Shown piece by piece: positions 51,575-53,956 of a stretch of 64,000 bases of DNA; position 1 is the first letter of the stretch, and every line of letters begins with the position of its first letter. Origin of the DNA: Acidimicrobiia bacterium (GTDB taxonomy: Bacteria > Actinomycetota > Acidimicrobiia > IMCC26256 > JAENVU01). The notes beneath the pieces are model-generated. The model was not told the origin of the DNA. It saw only the letters and a list, made by a program, of their open reading frames with translations, and made no database searches. Both the position numbers and the translations under genes were made by a program. Location: assembly GCA_038252255.1 (NCBI GenBank), contig JBBSAM010000005.1:94040-158039 (forward strand), read 5' to 3'.

Positions 51575-52941
51575 CCTCCCCCGAACCGGACCCCATACCG
51601 GCGCCGCCGCTCGGTGCGGTCGCCACGTCGAGCGACGCGTCTCCAGCCGACATCGAGGCGTTGATCGCACGAGTCAAGGATCGCGGGTTCGTCACGACAG
51701 GCGAGATCTTCGCCGCGCTGCCGGACCTCGAGCCCGAGACGGCAGAGCTCGCGGCGATCTACGCAAGCATGGAGAGCAACGGCGTCCAGGTCGTCGACGA
51801 GATTCTCGAAGAGCTCAAGCGCGAGGACGAACGGCGACACGGACGTGGCGAAGCGCCGTCGAGCACCGTGACCGACGCGGTGGACGCCGCAGTCGAACGC
51901 GCGCGGAAGCCGGCAACCCGGCCGGGCGCCGCGGCTGCTCCCGTGTCCGAGGAGCCACTGCCGGTTCCGGTGCCCGCGGTGCGGCCGAGCCGGGCGCGCG
52001 CGGAACGTCCGAGTGGCTTGGGCGAGGGCAGCTTCGACCCGGTGCGGATGTACCTGAAGGAGATCGGGAAGGTCCCGCTCCTCACGGCCGGGCAGGAAGT
52101 GAGCCTGGCCAAGCGCATCGAGGCCGGTCTCGACGCGGTGGACCGGGTGGAGCAGGAACAGCACCTCACCGAGTCGCAGCGGGCGAGCCTCCGCGCAGTG
52201 ACGCGTGACGGTGAGCTCGCCAAGAGGCAGCTGACCGAAGCCAACCTTCGGCTCGTGGTGTCGATCGCCAAGCGCTACGTGGGTCGGGGGATGGCGCTGC
52301 TCGACCTGATCCAGGAGGGCAACCTCGGTCTCATCCGTGCGGTCGAGAAGTTCGACTACACGAAGGGCTTCAAGTTCTCGACCTACGCGACGTGGTGGAT
52401 CCGCCAGGCGATCACTCGAGCGATCGCGGACCAGGCGCGCACGATCCGGATTCCCGTTCACATGGTCGAGACCATGAACAAGGTGATGCGGATCCAGCGC
52501 CAGCTCCTCCAGGAGCTCGGTCGAGAGCCGACGGTCGAGGAGATTGCCGCGAAGGTGGAGCTCACCCCGGACCGCGTGCGCGAGATCCAGCGCCTCGGTC
52601 AGGAGCCCGTGTCGCTCGAGACGCCGGTGGGAGACGACGACGACTCGTTCCTAGGTGACTTCGTCGAAGACCCCAACGCGACCGCGCCGGCAACGGCCGC
52701 AGCCCGCGCGCTGCTCACCGAGGCGATCGAAGAGGCGCTCGAAGAGCTGAACGACCGCGAACGGCAGGTCGTGCGCCTGCGCTTCGGTCTCGACGACGGT
52801 CAGGTGCGCACGCTCGAAGAGGTGGGCAAGGAGTTCGGCGTGACGCGGGAGCGGATCCGCCAGATCGAGTCGAAGACACTGGCGAAGCTGCGTCACCCGA
52901 CGCGTTCCCAGCGCCTGCGCGACTACCTCGAAGAGCCCTAG
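51559..52941 (+). CDS. rpoD: Principal (group 1) RNA polymerase sigma factor
   Basis: Regions 1.2-4.2 are present ([56 protein letters not shown]). The start is ATG 51559 or ATG 51571, the latter forming an ATGA overlap with dnaG. Confidence 0.93.
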
Positions 52942-53165
52942 AGAGAGTCGGCGACCGGGTCGACGAGACGGAGGTGCTCCGTCTCGTCGTCGGGCCGGAG
53001 GCGTTCCACGCCGAGCTCCACGGCCGCCTGGAGGCGATCGAAGAGCCGGCTGTCCCGGAGCCGCTCGAGCCGGCGGCGGATCTGCTCGTAGCGAGCCCGC
53101 CCGGCCTTGGCGCCGAGGTAGTAGCCAATGCCGAAGCCGAGCACGAGACCGATCCGGAACTTCAT
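52938..53165 (-). CDS. Small single-pass membrane protein (75 aa)
   Basis: ATG 53165 follows AGGAAGAGAG. It has an N-terminal TM segment ([17 protein letters not shown]) followed by a charged helical tail. GC3 bias is good. A LexA box lies 46 nt upstream. Confidence 0.65.
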
Positions 53166-53210
53166 GCTCTCTTCCTACCGCATCCATCGACCGCGCGCGG
53201 GTTTCGGGTG

Positions 53211-53228
53211 AACGAACATATGTTCGTT
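53211..53228. promoter_or_regulatory. LexA SOS (Cheo) box, perfect 18-bp palindrome AACGAACATATGTTCGTT
   Basis: The core CGAAC-ATAT-GTTCG (53213-53226) matches the Gram-positive/actinobacterial LexA consensus CGAAC-N4-GTTCG. It abuts the TATGCT -10-like hexamer (53228-53233), which lies 6 nt before ATG 53240. It sits between the divergent genes. Confidence 0.8.
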
Positions 53229-53239
53229 ATGCTCCGACC

Positions 53240-53890
53240 ATGGGCTACCGCGGCAAGGTCGAGCAGCAGGAGCAGGCGCGGTTGCTACGCGCGCAGAACC
53301 GGACACTCGCCGACATCGCAGCCGAGCTGGATGTCAGCAAGTCCTCGGTATCCCTCTGGGTACGTGACGTCCCCTTCACCGCATCCAAACGCCGCTACGG
53401 TCCCCGCCGCCGCCCGCATCCACAGCAAGCAGCCAAGATTCTGGAGATCGAGAAGTGCGCCGCTGAAGGCCGAACCCGCTTCGAGGCATTGAGCGAAGAC
53501 GCGTTCTTCGCCGCTGGAGTTGCGCTCTATGCGGGCGAGGGTTCGAAGACCGATGGTTCGGTGTCGTTCGCGAACTGCGATCCCGACATGATCCGGTTCT
53601 TTGCTGCGTGGCTCCGCCGGTTCTTCGATGTCGATGAACCCCGACTACGGGTGCAGGTCTATCTGCATCAGGGGCTCGATCTCGATGCAGCACACCACTT
53701 CTGGTCTTCGGTCACGGGTGTTCCGCTCGGCCAGTTCCGCAAGGGTCATCGTGCGGTCGCGGATCCGACGATCCGGCACAACAAGCATGAGAATGGCTGC
53801 TGCTACCTGAGATACCACTGCTCGCATACCCACCGGAAGGTCATGGGTCTGGTGCGGGCGCTGCTATCGTCAGACGCCATTCCGGGGTAG
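53240..53890 (+). CDS. HTH + LAGLIDADG-like (homing-endonuclease-like) protein; stop codon inside tRNA-Asn
   Basis: It has an N-terminal HTH (RTLADIAAELDVSKSSVSLWVRDV) and a central motif AGVALYAGEGSKTDGSVSF resembling a single LAGLIDADG helix. It is visibly less GC-rich, with more A/T-ending codons than its neighbours. The functional call is tentative. Confidence 0.6.
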   Translation: MGYRGKVEQQEQARLLRAQNRTLADIAAELDVSKSSVSLWVRDVPFTASKRRYGPRRRPHPQQAAKILEIEKCAAEGRTRFEALSEDAFFAAGVALYAGEGSKTDGSVSFANCDPDMIRFFAAWLRRFFDVDEPRLRVQVYLHQGLDLDAAHHFWSSVTGVPLGQFRKGHRAVADPTIRHNKHENGCCYLRYHCSHTHRKVMGLVRALLSSDAIPG

Positions 53891-53956
53891 CTCAATCGGC
53901 GGAGCAGCGCACTGTTAATGCGACGGCTGAGGGTTCGAGTCCCTCCCCCGGAGCCA
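53881..53956 (+). tRNA. tRNA-Asn (anticodon GTT), CCA encoded
   Basis: Hand-folded: TCCGGGG/TA/GCTC-AATCGGCG-GAGC/A/GCGCA-CTGTTAA-TGCGA/CGGCT/GAGGG-TTCGAGT-CCCTC/CCCCGGA/G/CCA. Confidence 0.92.

What the first reader, a model, noticed from the sequence alone, without database searches (positions are those of the whole stretch)
53166..53239. Perfect LexA box between a 75-aa single-pass membrane protein and an HTH/endonuclease-like gene: candidate SOS-induced effectors
AACGAACATATGTTCGTT (53211-53228) is an 18-bp perfect palindrome. Its core CGAAC-N4-GTTCG is the Cheo/SOS box of Gram-positive and actinobacterial LexA. On the + strand it abuts a TATGCT -10-like hexamer 6 nt before ATG 53240, giving a leaderless geometry. 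On the - strand the box itself contains TATGTT about 45 nt upstream of the small gene, which has a strong AGGAAGAGAG RBS. LexA would therefore repress both genes. SOS-controlled small membrane proteins are the cell-division inhibitors in several lineages (YneA, DivS, ChiZ, SidA), and they are not homologous to one another. The 75-aa protein (an N-terminal TM segment plus a charged tail) is a reasonable candidate for that role in this lineage.
Basis: partly seen in the sequence, partly recalled or inferred. Interest (0 to 1): 0.6.

Follow-up and report, generated by a model that had tools for sequence, protein, structure and literature searches.

The report
SOS-controlled endonuclease-like gene abutting tRNA-Asn
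The palindrome is very probably a real DNA-damage (LexA) switch, but comparative evidence ties it to the 216-aa HTH/endonuclease-like gene, which looks like a mobile element docked on the 5' end of tRNA-Asn, and not to the small membrane protein proposed as a cell-division inhibitor.

Summary
AACGAACATATGTTCGTT (53211-53228) matches this genome's SOS box: the same CGAAC-N4-GTTCG core precedes lexA, recA, dnaE2, imuA', two dinB, ruvC and radA.

- The box is locked to the + strand gene. The layout box + 1 nt + TATGCT + 6 nt + ATG is the same as at dnaE2, imuA' and an alkB-like gene.
- In relatives the box appears only where the 216-aa gene is present (7 of 8 filled sites, 0 of 20 empty sites).
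- The 75-aa gene is an old, highly conserved neighbour of tRNA-Asn. It has its own -10-like element next to its ATG, and the box lies about 54 nt upstream of that start.
- A ChiZ-like gene already sits divergent from lexA.

The 216-aa gene belongs to a patchy, often decayed family. Its actinobacterial members sit directly 5' of a tRNA gene, and three protein clades match tRNA-Asn, tRNA-Gln and tRNA-Lys. In the orthologues its stop codon usually lies inside tRNA-Asn. Orthologues carry either a LexA box or a PafBC-type promoter. Its C-domain weakly matches the I-DmoI LAGLIDADG motif, but fold searches did not confirm that fold.

Best reading: a damage-induced, tRNA-targeted homing-endonuclease-like element.

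The parts
53211..53228 (.). LexA operator (SOS box): 18-bp perfect palindrome, core CGAAC-N4-GTTCG at 53213-53226
   Evidence: One search gives the sequence. The same core lies upstream of lexA, recA, dnaE2, imuA', dinB, ruvC and radA in this genome. It is conserved at the same offset in orthologous loci.
53228..53233 (+). -10 hexamer TATGCT of the 216-aa gene, 1 nt after the box core and 6 nt before the ATG
   Evidence: The layout box + 1-2 nt + TAnnnT (+ 6 nt + start) recurs at dnaE2, imuA', the alkB-like gene, recA, the exonuclease gene and the HNH genes and in orthologues. Promoter function is inferred.
53240..53890 (+). 216-aa gene: N-terminal HTH (residues ~4-40), helical linker, and a C-domain (86-210) with a LAGLIDADG-like motif GVALYAGEGSK. 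Probably translated from a leaderless mRNA
   Evidence: ORF. There are 3736 homologues, most exactly 216 aa. Pfam finds only weak HTH matches. AF2 models have pLDDT 89.6 and 92.0. The profile matches the I-DmoI C-terminal domain at E = 1.2e-3 and 3.4e-4, with E100 and K103 aligned to the E and K of I-DmoI's AEGDK motif. GC3 is 0.74 against 0.82-0.92 in the neighbours.
53862..53870 (+). TGcTATCGT, an extended -10-like element inside the last codons (A-L-L-S) of the 216-aa gene, 10 nt before tRNA-Asn +1. Probable own promoter of tRNA-Asn
   Evidence: It is conserved at the nucleotide level, including the CTA codon (rare in high-GC genomes, by general knowledge), in filled loci. It is retained in loci that have lost the rest of the gene (L041, L045). 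Empty sites carry TGnTAnnnT in the equivalent place. Function is inferred.
53881..53956 (+). tRNA-Asn(GTT). Its first 10 nt encode the last two residues (P, G) and the TAG stop (53888-53890 = U8-A9-G10) of the 216-aa gene
   Evidence: ARAGORN and sequence. The same overlap occurs in 13 of 17 orthologous tRNA-Asn loci.
52938..53165 (-). 75-aa glycine-zipper TM protein with a basic helical tail. It is an ancestral neighbour of tRNA-Asn and not part of the SOS cassette
   Evidence: One search gives the ORF. Homologues are 80-92% identical. The gene is divergent from tRNA-Asn in 28 of 30 loci across the class, with no LexA box in the 20 empty sites. YtxH-like matches are sub-threshold.
53172..53177 (-). 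TAGGAA, a -10-like hexamer 6 nt before the ATG of the 75-aa gene.
   Evidence: A hexamer sits at the same offset in most relatives: TATGAC, TATAAC, TACAAC, CAGAAT, GACAAT and others. Inferred. The missing final T makes this copy atypical.

Best explanation
The palindrome is a LexA operator on the promoter of the 216-aa gene. It fills the spacer immediately upstream of the -10 (TATGCT), and transcription would start at or next to the ATG, giving a leaderless mRNA. Without DNA damage LexA would block RNA polymerase. After damage, RecA-stimulated LexA self-cleavage would release the promoter.

The gene is a cassette sitting between two old neighbours, the 75-aa membrane-protein gene and tRNA-Asn. 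It ends inside the tRNA, whose U8-A9-G10 supplies its stop codon. Its last codons appear to carry the tRNA's own promoter, so tRNA-Asn supply would not depend on LexA.

The protein combines a transposase/resolvase-type HTH with a domain that carries a LAGLIDADG-like helix and a conserved acidic residue and lysine. The family is patchy, often decayed and horizontally moved. Its actinobacterial members lie at tRNA 5' ends, with three clades specific for Asn, Gln and Lys tRNA genes. It most likely is, or descends from, a free-standing homing endonuclease that targets tRNA genes and is expressed only during the DNA-damage response. In sister lineages the same promoter carries a PafBC-type -26 element instead of the LexA box.

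Shown: the motif, its calibration in this genome, its geometry, its co-inheritance with the gene, the tRNA linkage, and the decay and patchiness of the family.
Inferred: LexA binding, damage induction, leaderless starts, the embedded tRNA promoter, nuclease activity and homing.
For: Motif calibrated in the same genome:
- Boxes lie upstream of lexA (two) and recA.
- Boxes also lie at radA, two dinB, ruvC, dnaE2, imuA', an exonuclease gene, an alkB-like gene and DUF222/HNH genes.

Identical geometry at dnaE2 (gTAAGGT cggggg ATG), imuA' (gTAGGGT gcccga GTG), the alkB-like gene (cTAGACT cgagcc ATG) and this gene (tTATGCT ccgacc ATG).

Co-inheritance with the 216-aa gene:
- 7 of 8 filled sites carry the box, against 0 of 20 empty sites.
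- The box-to-start distance is fixed in orthologues.

Order-level census:
- 76 of 201 genomes carry the gene.
- Of 26 loci with enough upstream sequence, 10 have a LexA box plus -10, 14 have a PafBC-like promoter and 2 have neither.
- The PafBC consensus tGTCgg(N10)tA(N3)T is taken from PMC8635444.
- This genome has pafA followed by tandem WYL genes.

tRNA linkage:
- All 33 loci from the phylum lie next to a tRNA gene; 31 lie directly 5' of it on the same strand, and in two (L014, L021) ARAGORN called the tRNA-Asn on the opposite strand.
- Three protein clades equal three tRNA identities, with support 95-100 and 0 of 200 label shuffles as good.
- Four distant low-GC homologues also sit 5' of tRNA-Asn. 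In three of them the tRNA carries a group I intron.

Selfish-element signs:
- Presence and absence vary within genera, and at least 14 copies are split or carry stops.
- Remnants keep only the promoter and/or the 3' end.
- The protein tree disagrees with taxonomy.
- GC3 is 0.74.

LAGLIDADG-like motif: profile matches to I-DmoI at E = 1.2e-3 and 3.4e-4, with E100 (E or D in nearly all aligned homologues) and K103 (invariant in A2) aligned to the E and K of I-DmoI's AEGDK.
Against: - There are no expression or binding data.
- Foldseek on two confident models returned no LAGLIDADG structure. The best matches were OmpA-like/YfiB domains at TM about 0.4.
- No Pfam, NCBIfam, PHROG or PADLOC family covers the C-domain.
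- No homologue was found in the phage or plasmid collections.
- Thousands of intact copies of exactly 216 aa at about 70% identity indicate purifying selection. That fits a domesticated host function as well as an active selfish one.
- If the enzyme cut tRNA-Asn DNA, the adjacent intron-less tRNA-Asn would need protection. tRNA variants in filled sites are suggestive only.
- Two distant homologues (L074, L077) have the tRNA upstream instead of downstream.
Confidence: 0.6

Rival explanations
1. One LexA box represses both divergent genes, and the 75-aa TM protein is the lineage's SOS-induced cell-division inhibitor.
For: - The box lies between the two genes, and TATGTT inside it could serve as a -10 on the - strand.
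- The protein is small with a single TM segment, like YneA, SosA and DivS (PMC6851548).
- LexA bound near -54 could still dampen a weak promoter.
Against: - There is no LexA box upstream of the 75-aa gene in 20 of 20 relatives that lack the 216-aa gene. The box is also absent where the 216-aa gene uses a PafBC-type promoter.
- The distance from the box to this gene varies from 47 to 67 nt.
- A -10-like hexamer next to the ATG is conserved.
- In the 75-aa direction no -10 follows the box, unlike every calibrated SOS promoter of this genome.
- Homologues are 80-92% identical, the tail is basic and probably cytoplasmic, and there is no LysM domain.
- The slot divergent from lexA is taken by a 134-aa protein with a TM segment and a weak LysM match, next to nrdR.
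Confidence: 0.08
2. The LexA box is real, but the 216-aa protein is a domesticated DNA-binding factor of the damage response. It would be a WhiA-like regulator derived from a homing endonuclease, no longer mobile and no longer a nuclease. Its position at the tRNA would be a fossil of the original insertion.
For: - Thousands of intact copies of constant length at about 70% identity.
- Damage-response promoters at 24 of 26 loci in the order.
- Precedent: WhiA is a LAGLIDADG-derived transcription factor (PMC3984707).
- The fold search did not retrieve nucleases.
Against: - Presence and absence vary within genera, and pseudogenes and remnants are frequent.
- The phylogeny disagrees with taxonomy, and three clades each keep to their own tRNA gene even within one host family.
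- The acidic residue and lysine that align with I-DmoI's AEGDK motif are conserved.
Confidence: 0.25
3. The protein acts on the RNA and not the DNA. It would be a damage-induced factor that cleaves, processes or binds its cognate tRNA (Asn, Gln or Lys), or a maturase for tRNA group I introns. The gene-tRNA linkage would then reflect function.
For: - The protein clades match tRNA identity.
- Three distant homologues lie next to tRNA-Asn genes that carry group I introns.
- LAGLIDADG proteins can be maturases (PMC3984707).
Against: - The actinobacterial tRNA-Asn genes next to the gene have no intron.
- No RNA-binding or anticodon-nuclease domain was detected.
- Empty, filled and remnant sites fit insertion and loss of DNA better.
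Confidence: 0.05
4. The palindrome is a chance match, or the site of another regulator, and has no role in the SOS response.
For: - 13.6 exact cores are expected by chance under a Markov model, and several of the 31 lie inside genes.
- There are no experimental data.
Against: - It is the only 18-bp perfect palindrome with this core in the genome.
- Its geometry is the same as at dnaE2, imuA' and the alkB-like gene.
- It is conserved at the same offset in more than 15 orthologous loci despite divergent flanks.
Confidence: 0.02

Closest known systems
Actinobacterial / Gram-positive SOS (Cheo-type) box, as at lexA, recA and dnaE2
   Same: The CGAAC-N4-GTTCG palindrome is placed over the promoter. 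In this genome it sits 1-2 nt upstream of the -10, as at recA, dnaE2 and imuA'.
   Different: The target gene is not a repair gene. It is a tRNA-abutting HTH/LAGLIDADG-like gene that I could not find in any described LexA regulon. I did not compare published regulon lists.
Free-standing homing endonuclease genes and 'collaborative homing' with group I introns (phage T4 mobE and seg genes; reviewed in PMC3984707 and PMC2790892)
   Same: - A stand-alone nuclease-like ORF sits next to a conserved target gene.
- Its distribution is patchy, with empty, filled and degenerate sites.
- It has an extra HTH domain.
- In three distant loci the adjacent tRNA-Asn carries a group I intron in its anticodon loop.
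   Different: - It is chromosomal in bacteria, with no phage or plasmid copies.
- It is docked exactly on the tRNA 5' end and shares its stop codon with the tRNA.
- It seems to carry the tRNA promoter.
- It is under host damage-response control (LexA or PafBC).
- Nuclease activity is unproven.
I-DmoI and other LAGLIDADG homing endonucleases
   Same: A profile match covers the second LAGLIDADG helix, the following hairpin and the next helix of I-DmoI. E100 and K103 align with the E and K of AEGDK; from memory these are the catalytic E117 and K120. The predicted order of secondary-structure elements fits alpha-beta-beta-alpha-beta-(insert)-beta-alpha.
   Different: There is a single domain, so any active form would need to be a homodimer. 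About 45 residues are inserted between strands 3 and 4. No Pfam LAGLIDADG match was found, and Foldseek found no LAGLIDADG structure.
PafBC-dependent (RecA-NDp) promoters of mycobacteria: tGTCgg(N10)tA(N3)T (PMC8635444)
   Same: Orthologues of the 216-aa gene carry [t/c]GTCAYAC-N8-TAnnnT followed 6-7 nt later by the in-frame start codon. This genome has pafA plus tandem WYL genes.
   Different: The window's own copy has no -26 element. A LexA operator occupies that position, so a repressor site and an activator site alternate at one promoter among close relatives.
SOS cell-division inhibitors YneA, ChiZ, DivS and SosA
   Same: The 75-aa protein is small with one TM segment and lies next to a LexA box.
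   Different: - It is not divergent from lexA.
- The box is not inherited with it.
- It is highly conserved.
- Its tail is basic and has no LysM domain.
- A better candidate lies divergent from lexA at C8:133033-133437 of the genome.
LexA-regulated REP13E12 (DUF222/HNH) elements of mycobacteria (from my own knowledge of the M. tuberculosis LexA regulon, not checked here)
   Same: They are nuclease-like, probably selfish genes under SOS boxes. This genome has at least four DUF222/HNH-like genes (judged by eye from translations) with boxes of the same layout.
   Different: The nuclease family is different, and those elements have no tRNA docking.

Membership tests
LexA (SOS) operator of Actinobacteria / Gram-positives | Palindrome CGAAC-N4-GTTCG | tested here: met
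   Exact core inside an 18-bp perfect palindrome.
LexA (SOS) operator of Actinobacteria / Gram-positives | The same motif lies upstream of lexA and recA and other repair genes of the same genome | tested here: met
   Two boxes at lexA and one at recA, plus radA, two dinB, ruvC, dnaE2, imuA', an exonuclease gene and an alkB-like gene.
LexA (SOS) operator of Actinobacteria / Gram-positives | Operator overlaps the core promoter of the regulated gene | tested here: met
   For the 216-aa gene the layout is box + 1 nt + TATGCT + 6 nt + ATG, as at dnaE2, imuA' and the alkB-like gene. The promoter is inferred, not mapped. For the 75-aa gene the box lies about -54 from the probable start.
LexA (SOS) operator of Actinobacteria / Gram-positives | Conserved in orthologous promoters | tested here: met
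   Present at the same offset in L003, L005, L012, L037-L039, L048, L049, L081, L084, L086, L088, L092, L093, L095, L096, L104 and L105. In other orthologues a PafBC-type element takes its place.
LexA (SOS) operator of Actinobacteria / Gram-positives | LexA binding and damage induction | not testable with these tools
EMSA, ChIP or RNA-seq is needed.
LAGLIDADG homing endonucleases | LAGLIDADG helix ending in a conserved acidic residue | tested here: met
   GVALYAGEGSK. Residue 100 is E or D in nearly all aligned homologues, and K103 is invariant in A2. Family profiles match the I-DmoI C-terminal domain at E = 1.2e-3 and 3.4e-4. The statistical support is marginal.
LAGLIDADG homing endonucleases | alpha-beta-beta-alpha-beta-beta-alpha fold | tested here: inconclusive
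   The AF2 models are confident (pLDDT 89.6 and 92.0; pTM 0.86 for the domain). Foldseek found no LAGLIDADG structure in the PDB top 50, and the best matches were OmpA-like domains at TM about 0.4. The order of elements fits the fold only if an insertion of about 45 residues lies between strands 3 and 4.
LAGLIDADG homing endonucleases | Match to a curated LAGLIDADG family model | tested here: not met
   No Pfam, NCBIfam or PHROG model matched the C-domain of the query or of 38 homologues.
LAGLIDADG homing endonucleases | Selfish-element population pattern: site-specific insertion, empty and filled sites, decay, horizontal transfer | tested here: met
   All 33 phylum loci lie next to a tRNA gene, 31 of them directly 5' of it. 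There are three tRNA-specific clades. The class sample gave 20 empty, 8 filled and 3 remnant sites. Presence varies within genera, and many copies are split or carry stops.
LAGLIDADG homing endonucleases | Site-specific DNA cleavage | not testable with these tools
   Needs an in vitro cleavage assay.
SOS-induced cell-division inhibitors (YneA/ChiZ/DivS/SosA class), applied to the 75-aa protein | Gene under LexA control, typically divergent from lexA | tested here: not met
   The gene lies next to sigA and tRNA-Asn, not lexA. No box in 20 of 20 loci without the 216-aa gene. Another gene occupies the slot divergent from lexA.
SOS-induced cell-division inhibitors (YneA/ChiZ/DivS/SosA class), applied to the 75-aa protein | Single TM segment with an extracellular C-terminus, usually with LysM | tested here: inconclusive
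   The TM-like glycine zipper (residues 5-22) is present. The tail is Arg-rich, so by the positive-inside rule it is probably cytoplasmic. No LysM domain was found, and YtxH-like matches are sub-threshold.
PafBC-dependent promoters | tGTCnn-N10-tAnnnT with no -35 | tested here: not met
   Absent from the window's promoter, where positions 53212-53217 read ACGAAC. Present in 14 of 26 orthologous loci of the order and in 13 loci of the phylum sample.

The most novel reading that the evidence does not exclude
A large, undescribed family of free-standing LAGLIDADG-like homing elements that dock on the 5' end of specific tRNA genes (clades for Asn, Gln and Lys). They take their stop codon from the tRNA and supply the tRNA's promoter. 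They are licensed by the host DNA-damage response, swapping a LexA operator for a PafBC -26 element at one promoter among close relatives. In other phyla the same family sits beside tRNA-Asn genes split by group I introns, which would be a bacterial chromosomal case of collaborative homing.
Probability: 0.4. Interest if true: 0.75.

Novelty: new variant of a known kind. Interest (0 to 1): 0.6.

Why it matters
1. It corrects a tempting annotation. The small membrane protein is not the SOS division inhibitor. The ChiZ-like gene next to lexA is the better candidate.

2. It defines a tRNA-docked, endonuclease-like gene family with thousands of members in uncultured Actinomycetota and beyond. The family has no curated model, and I found no literature on it.

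3. It offers a natural experiment in regulatory evolution. Orthologous promoters alternate between repression by LexA and activation by PafBC, the two actinobacterial damage-response systems.

4. If the protein is an active nuclease, it would show a selfish element that restricts itself to the window when recombinational repair is induced. It could also provide tRNA-gene-specific LAGLIDADG scaffolds.

5. The overlap with the tRNA raises a testable question about expression control. RNase P cleavage at tRNA +1 would remove the mRNA's stop codon.

Tried and rejected
- Foldseek on the full-length model against PDB and BFVD, and on the C-domain model against PDB, returned only weak OmpA-like/YfiB matches (TM about 0.3-0.4). 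I do not take these as homology.
- Pfam, NCBIfam, PHROGs and PADLOC found only the HTH.
- tblastn against the phage and plasmid collections found nothing.
- The search for related loci with the single protein returned only 3 loci. The genome search was used instead. Its loci are not re-oriented, which at first made me read downstream tRNAs as upstream ones (corrected).
- I tested whether filled sites protect themselves through tRNA changes. In 6 of 8 filled sites of the class sample the D-arm differs from the GGCAGAGC found in all 23 empty or remnant sites. Many filled sites elsewhere keep the canonical D-arm, so this remains a lead only.
- I considered a SigF/SigB-type GGGTAT -10 for the 75-aa gene. 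No matching -35 was found, so I dropped it.
- I considered that the 216-aa ORF might be spurious because of its low GC3. The deep, conserved protein family rules this out.
- The second tRNA-Asn, on contig C69, is an unrelated atypical copy of 72 nt.
Full report
**1. Observation**

The sequence is as described.
- AACGAACATATGTTCGTT lies at 53211-53228.
- TATGCT lies at 53228-53233, followed by 6 nt and ATG at 53240, which opens a 216-aa ORF ending at 53890.
- On the other strand a 75-aa ORF (53165-52938) is preceded by ggtAGGAAGAGAGc.

The core CGAAC-N4-GTTCG occurs once in the window. With one mismatch allowed it is not enriched (7 found, 5.6 expected), so I calibrated the motif on the whole genome (5.19 Mb, 69% GC, 304 contigs).

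**2. This is the organism's SOS box**

There are 31 exact cores in the genome. About 5 are expected from base composition and 13.6 from a first-order Markov model.
- lexA (Pfam LexA_DNA_bind, 96.6 bits) has two boxes just upstream. recA has one.
- Further boxes sit at radA, two dinB, ruvC, dnaE2, an imuA'-like gene, a DnaQ-like exonuclease gene, an alkB-like gene and several DUF222/HNH genes. Apart from lexA and recA, these names come from reading the N-terminal translations by eye.
- The promoters share one design. The box is followed after 1-2 nt by TAnnnT, and in several cases by 6 nt and the start codon.

| Gene | After the box |
|---|---|
| dnaE2 | g TAAGGT cggggg ATG |
| imuA' | g TAGGGT gcccga GTG |
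| alkB-like | c TAGACT cgagcc ATG |
| 216-aa gene | t TATGCT ccgacc ATG |

In the direction of the 75-aa gene the box is followed by ttcacccgaaaccc, with no -10. The site is also the only 18-bp perfect palindrome with this core in the genome.

**3. Which gene owns the box**

I searched 151 genomes of the class for the 75-aa gene and examined 30 loci.
- The gene is divergent from tRNA-Asn(GTT) in 28 of them, so this is the ancestral arrangement. One locus (L047) has the tRNA in the other orientation and one (L051) is cut short.
- Twenty loci are empty sites. The tRNA lies 38-225 nt upstream of the 75-aa ATG and none has a LexA box.
- Eight loci have the 216-aa gene between the two neighbours. 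Seven of them carry the box (two with one mismatch). The eighth carries a PafBC-type element.
- Three loci are remnants. L041 keeps a degraded box, a -10, the first codons (MPGKV) and the last 15 or so codons. L045 and L047 keep only the 3' end.
- The box-to-start distance for the 216-aa gene is 13-16 nt. The distance to the 75-aa ATG varies from 47 to 67 nt.

**4. The 75-aa gene**

Homologues are 80-92% identical and share an invariant G-zipper/[14 protein letters not shown] core. Only sub-threshold YtxH-like matches were found.

Most relatives have a -10-like hexamer 6-8 nt before the ATG: CAGAAT, GACAAT, TATAAC, TACAAC, and TAGGAA in this genome. The gene is therefore probably leaderless, and the supposed RBS is probably promoter. 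The box centre then lies near -54, upstream of the -35 region.

Known Gram-positive SOS division inhibitors are divergent from lexA and have a single TM segment and an extracellular C-terminus, usually with LysM (PMC6851548). In this genome that slot holds a 134-aa protein with a TM segment and a weak LysM match, followed by nrdR. From memory, this is the chiZ arrangement of M. tuberculosis. The division-inhibitor proposal for the 75-aa protein is not supported.

**5. The 216-aa gene**

Family size and structure:
- It has 3736 homologues at E <= 1e-3 in the word-indexed search. Most of the best 120 are exactly 216 aa and 67-80% identical, and the few named ones come from Acidimicrobiia.
- The exhaustive search gave 3692 cluster representatives at E <= 1e-3.
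- Pfam sees only a weak HTH (HTH_23, HTH_38) at residues 7-43.
- AF2 gives a confident model: pLDDT 89.6 for the full length, and pLDDT 92.0 with pTM 0.86 for the C-domain.
- Family profiles match one thing in the PDB, the second LAGLIDADG domain of I-DmoI (E = 1.2e-3 and 3.4e-4). GLYVAEGDKTLKRLRIWNKNKALLEIVSRWL aligns with aLYaGeGsKtdgsvkfaNsdpelikfflawL. This places E100 and K103 on the E and K of AEGDK, which from memory are the catalytic E117 and K120.
- Foldseek did not retrieve LAGLIDADG structures. The order of secondary-structure elements fits the fold only with a long insertion between strands 3 and 4. I rate membership as suggestive, not shown.

tRNA linkage:
- The ORF's last two codons and its TAG (53888-53890) lie inside tRNA-Asn (53881-53956).
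- All 33 homologous loci from 401 genomes of the phylum lie next to a tRNA gene. In 31 the gene is directly 5' of the tRNA on the same strand, mostly with the same overlap. In two (L014, L021) ARAGORN called the tRNA-Asn on the opposite strand; I did not examine these further.
- A maximum-likelihood tree of 26 copies splits into three clades that match the adjacent tRNA exactly: Asn(GTT), Gln(TTG) and Lys(CTT). Support is 95-100, the number of label changes is the minimum possible, and 0 of 200 shuffles did as well. One host family carries both Gln-type and Lys-type copies. A Frankiaceae copy nests among Acidimicrobiia copies, while copies from the same class are basal.
- Four distant low-GC homologues also lie directly 5' of tRNA-Asn. 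In three of them the tRNA carries a group I intron at CUGU^UAA.
- Two other distant homologues instead have a tRNA-Arg upstream.

Signs of a selfish element:
- In the order, 76 of 201 genomes carry the gene. Presence varies within genera, and at least 14 copies are split or carry stops. Some of these could be MAG assembly errors.
- GC3 is 0.74 against 0.82-0.92 in the neighbours.
- No copy was found in the phage or plasmid collections.

**6. Promoter turnover**

Of 26 orthologous loci in the order with enough upstream sequence:
- Ten have a LexA box + 1 nt + TAnnnT. Five are leaderless. Five have a leader of about 45 nt whose CTTCCCCC/GGGGGAAG hairpin covers the SD.
- Fourteen have [t/c/a]GTCAYACCCC...TACCGT followed after 6 nt by ATG.
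- Two have neither. One of these is a pseudogene in which GTC has become GAC.

The second type matches the PafBC motif tGTCgg(N10)tA(N3)T in its GTC triplet, its spacing and its -10 (PMC8635444). It recurs, with the start codon in frame, in 13 loci of the phylum sample. G000 has dop, pafA and tandem WYL genes, so it has pafBC by synteny.

The gene is therefore a damage-response gene almost everywhere. It is wired to LexA in this genus and to PafBC in sister lineages, at the same promoter position.

**7. The tRNA keeps its own promoter**

Empty sites carry TGnTAnnnT 10-30 nt before the tRNA. In filled sites the codons for A-L-L-S read gcgCTGCTATCGTca. This gives TGcTATCGT (53862-53870) 10 nt before tRNA +1. 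It is conserved at the nucleotide level, and the remnants retain it. This is an inference.

**8. Verdict**

The LexA assignment is strongly supported by comparative evidence, although no experiment was possible. The target is the 216-aa gene.

The best reading of that gene is a damage-licensed, tRNA-targeted homing-endonuclease-like element. A domesticated damage-response DNA-binding factor is the main rival. The 75-aa division-inhibitor idea is not supported.

**Limits**
- The nuclease fold and nuclease activity are unproven.
- PafBC dependence is inferred from motifs alone.

Noticed in passing
Genome contig C8:133033-133437 (- strand), outside the window; locus L001: The gene divergent from lexA encodes a 134-aa protein with a probably disordered N-terminus, one TM segment (RRRLAVALGAVIVVLVAG) and a C-terminal stretch with a weak LysM match (E = 0.15). 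It is followed by nrdR. From memory this is the nrdR-chiZ-lexA arrangement of M. tuberculosis. It is the better candidate for the SOS division inhibitor.
   Followed up: partly
window 53862-53870: TGcTATCGT inside the last codons of the 216-aa gene looks like the promoter of tRNA-Asn. It is conserved at synonymous positions, including the CTA codon (rare in high-GC genomes, by general knowledge), and it is kept in loci that lost the rest of the gene (L041, L045).
   Followed up: partly
window 53881-53890: The stop codon of the 216-aa gene is U8-A9-G10 of tRNA-Asn. RNase P cleavage at tRNA +1 of a read-through transcript would leave the mRNA without a stop codon, which could route the protein to tmRNA tagging. 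This is speculation and was not tested.
   Followed up: no
L036, L037, L046, L048, L049, L053 versus L040-L065 (tRNA-Asn genes): In 6 of 8 filled sites of the class sample the tRNA-Asn D-arm differs (GGCGGAGC, GGTGGAGC, GGTRGCGC, GTTC/GAAC) from the GGCAGAGC found in all 23 empty or remnant sites. This could be target-site immunity. However, filled sites in other lineages keep the canonical D-arm, and the cases are not phylogenetically independent.
   Followed up: partly
L070:2190-2460, L073:808-1066, L076:1563-1838: In low-GC relatives, tRNA-Asn(GTT) genes are interrupted by a group I intron (Rfam RF00028, 79-86 bits) between U and U of the anticodon loop (CUGU^UAA). They lie directly downstream of distant homologues of the 216-aa gene. 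L070 also has a 91-aa GIY-YIG ORF just after the tRNA. L076 has a degenerate copy of the tRNA 5' part between the ORF and the tRNA.
   Followed up: partly
L081, L084, L086, L092, L093 (upstream of the 216-aa orthologue): A variant of the LexA-type promoter has a leader of about 45 nt. Its inverted repeat CTTCCCCC...GGGGGAAG would sequester the Shine-Dalgarno sequence (GGGGGAAGGGAG). This may be a second, translational layer of control.
   Followed up: no
Genome contigs C10:61341, C26:50637, C38:339 / C230:339, C6:11186: At least four DUF222/HNH-like genes (resembling mycobacterial REP13E12, judged by eye from the translations) carry SOS boxes with the layout TTGACn-box-tgTAGGGT. SOS control of nuclease-like, probably selfish genes is a theme in this genome.
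   Followed up: no
Genome contigs C1:~22934 (-) and C22:~39761 (-): TTGTCGCACCC-N-TACGCT and TTGTCACACC-N-TAGGTT lie 6-7 nt before the starts of a 575-aa and a 200-aa ORF. From their N-termini by eye these look HerA-like and ComF-like. They are candidates for the PafBC regulon of this organism.
   Followed up: no
L005:3001-3652; also G632, G551, G560, G624, G683: Many orthologues are frameshifted or carry internal stops. L005 is frameshifted after FANT, and G560 has 3 TGA codons. Some of this may be MAG assembly error.
   Followed up: partly
Genome contig C69:7175-7246: A second, atypical 72-nt tRNA-Asn(GTT) with a different acceptor stem (TCACCCG...) lies on a 7.7-kb contig. Its origin was not examined; it could come from a prophage, an island or contamination.
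   Followed up: no
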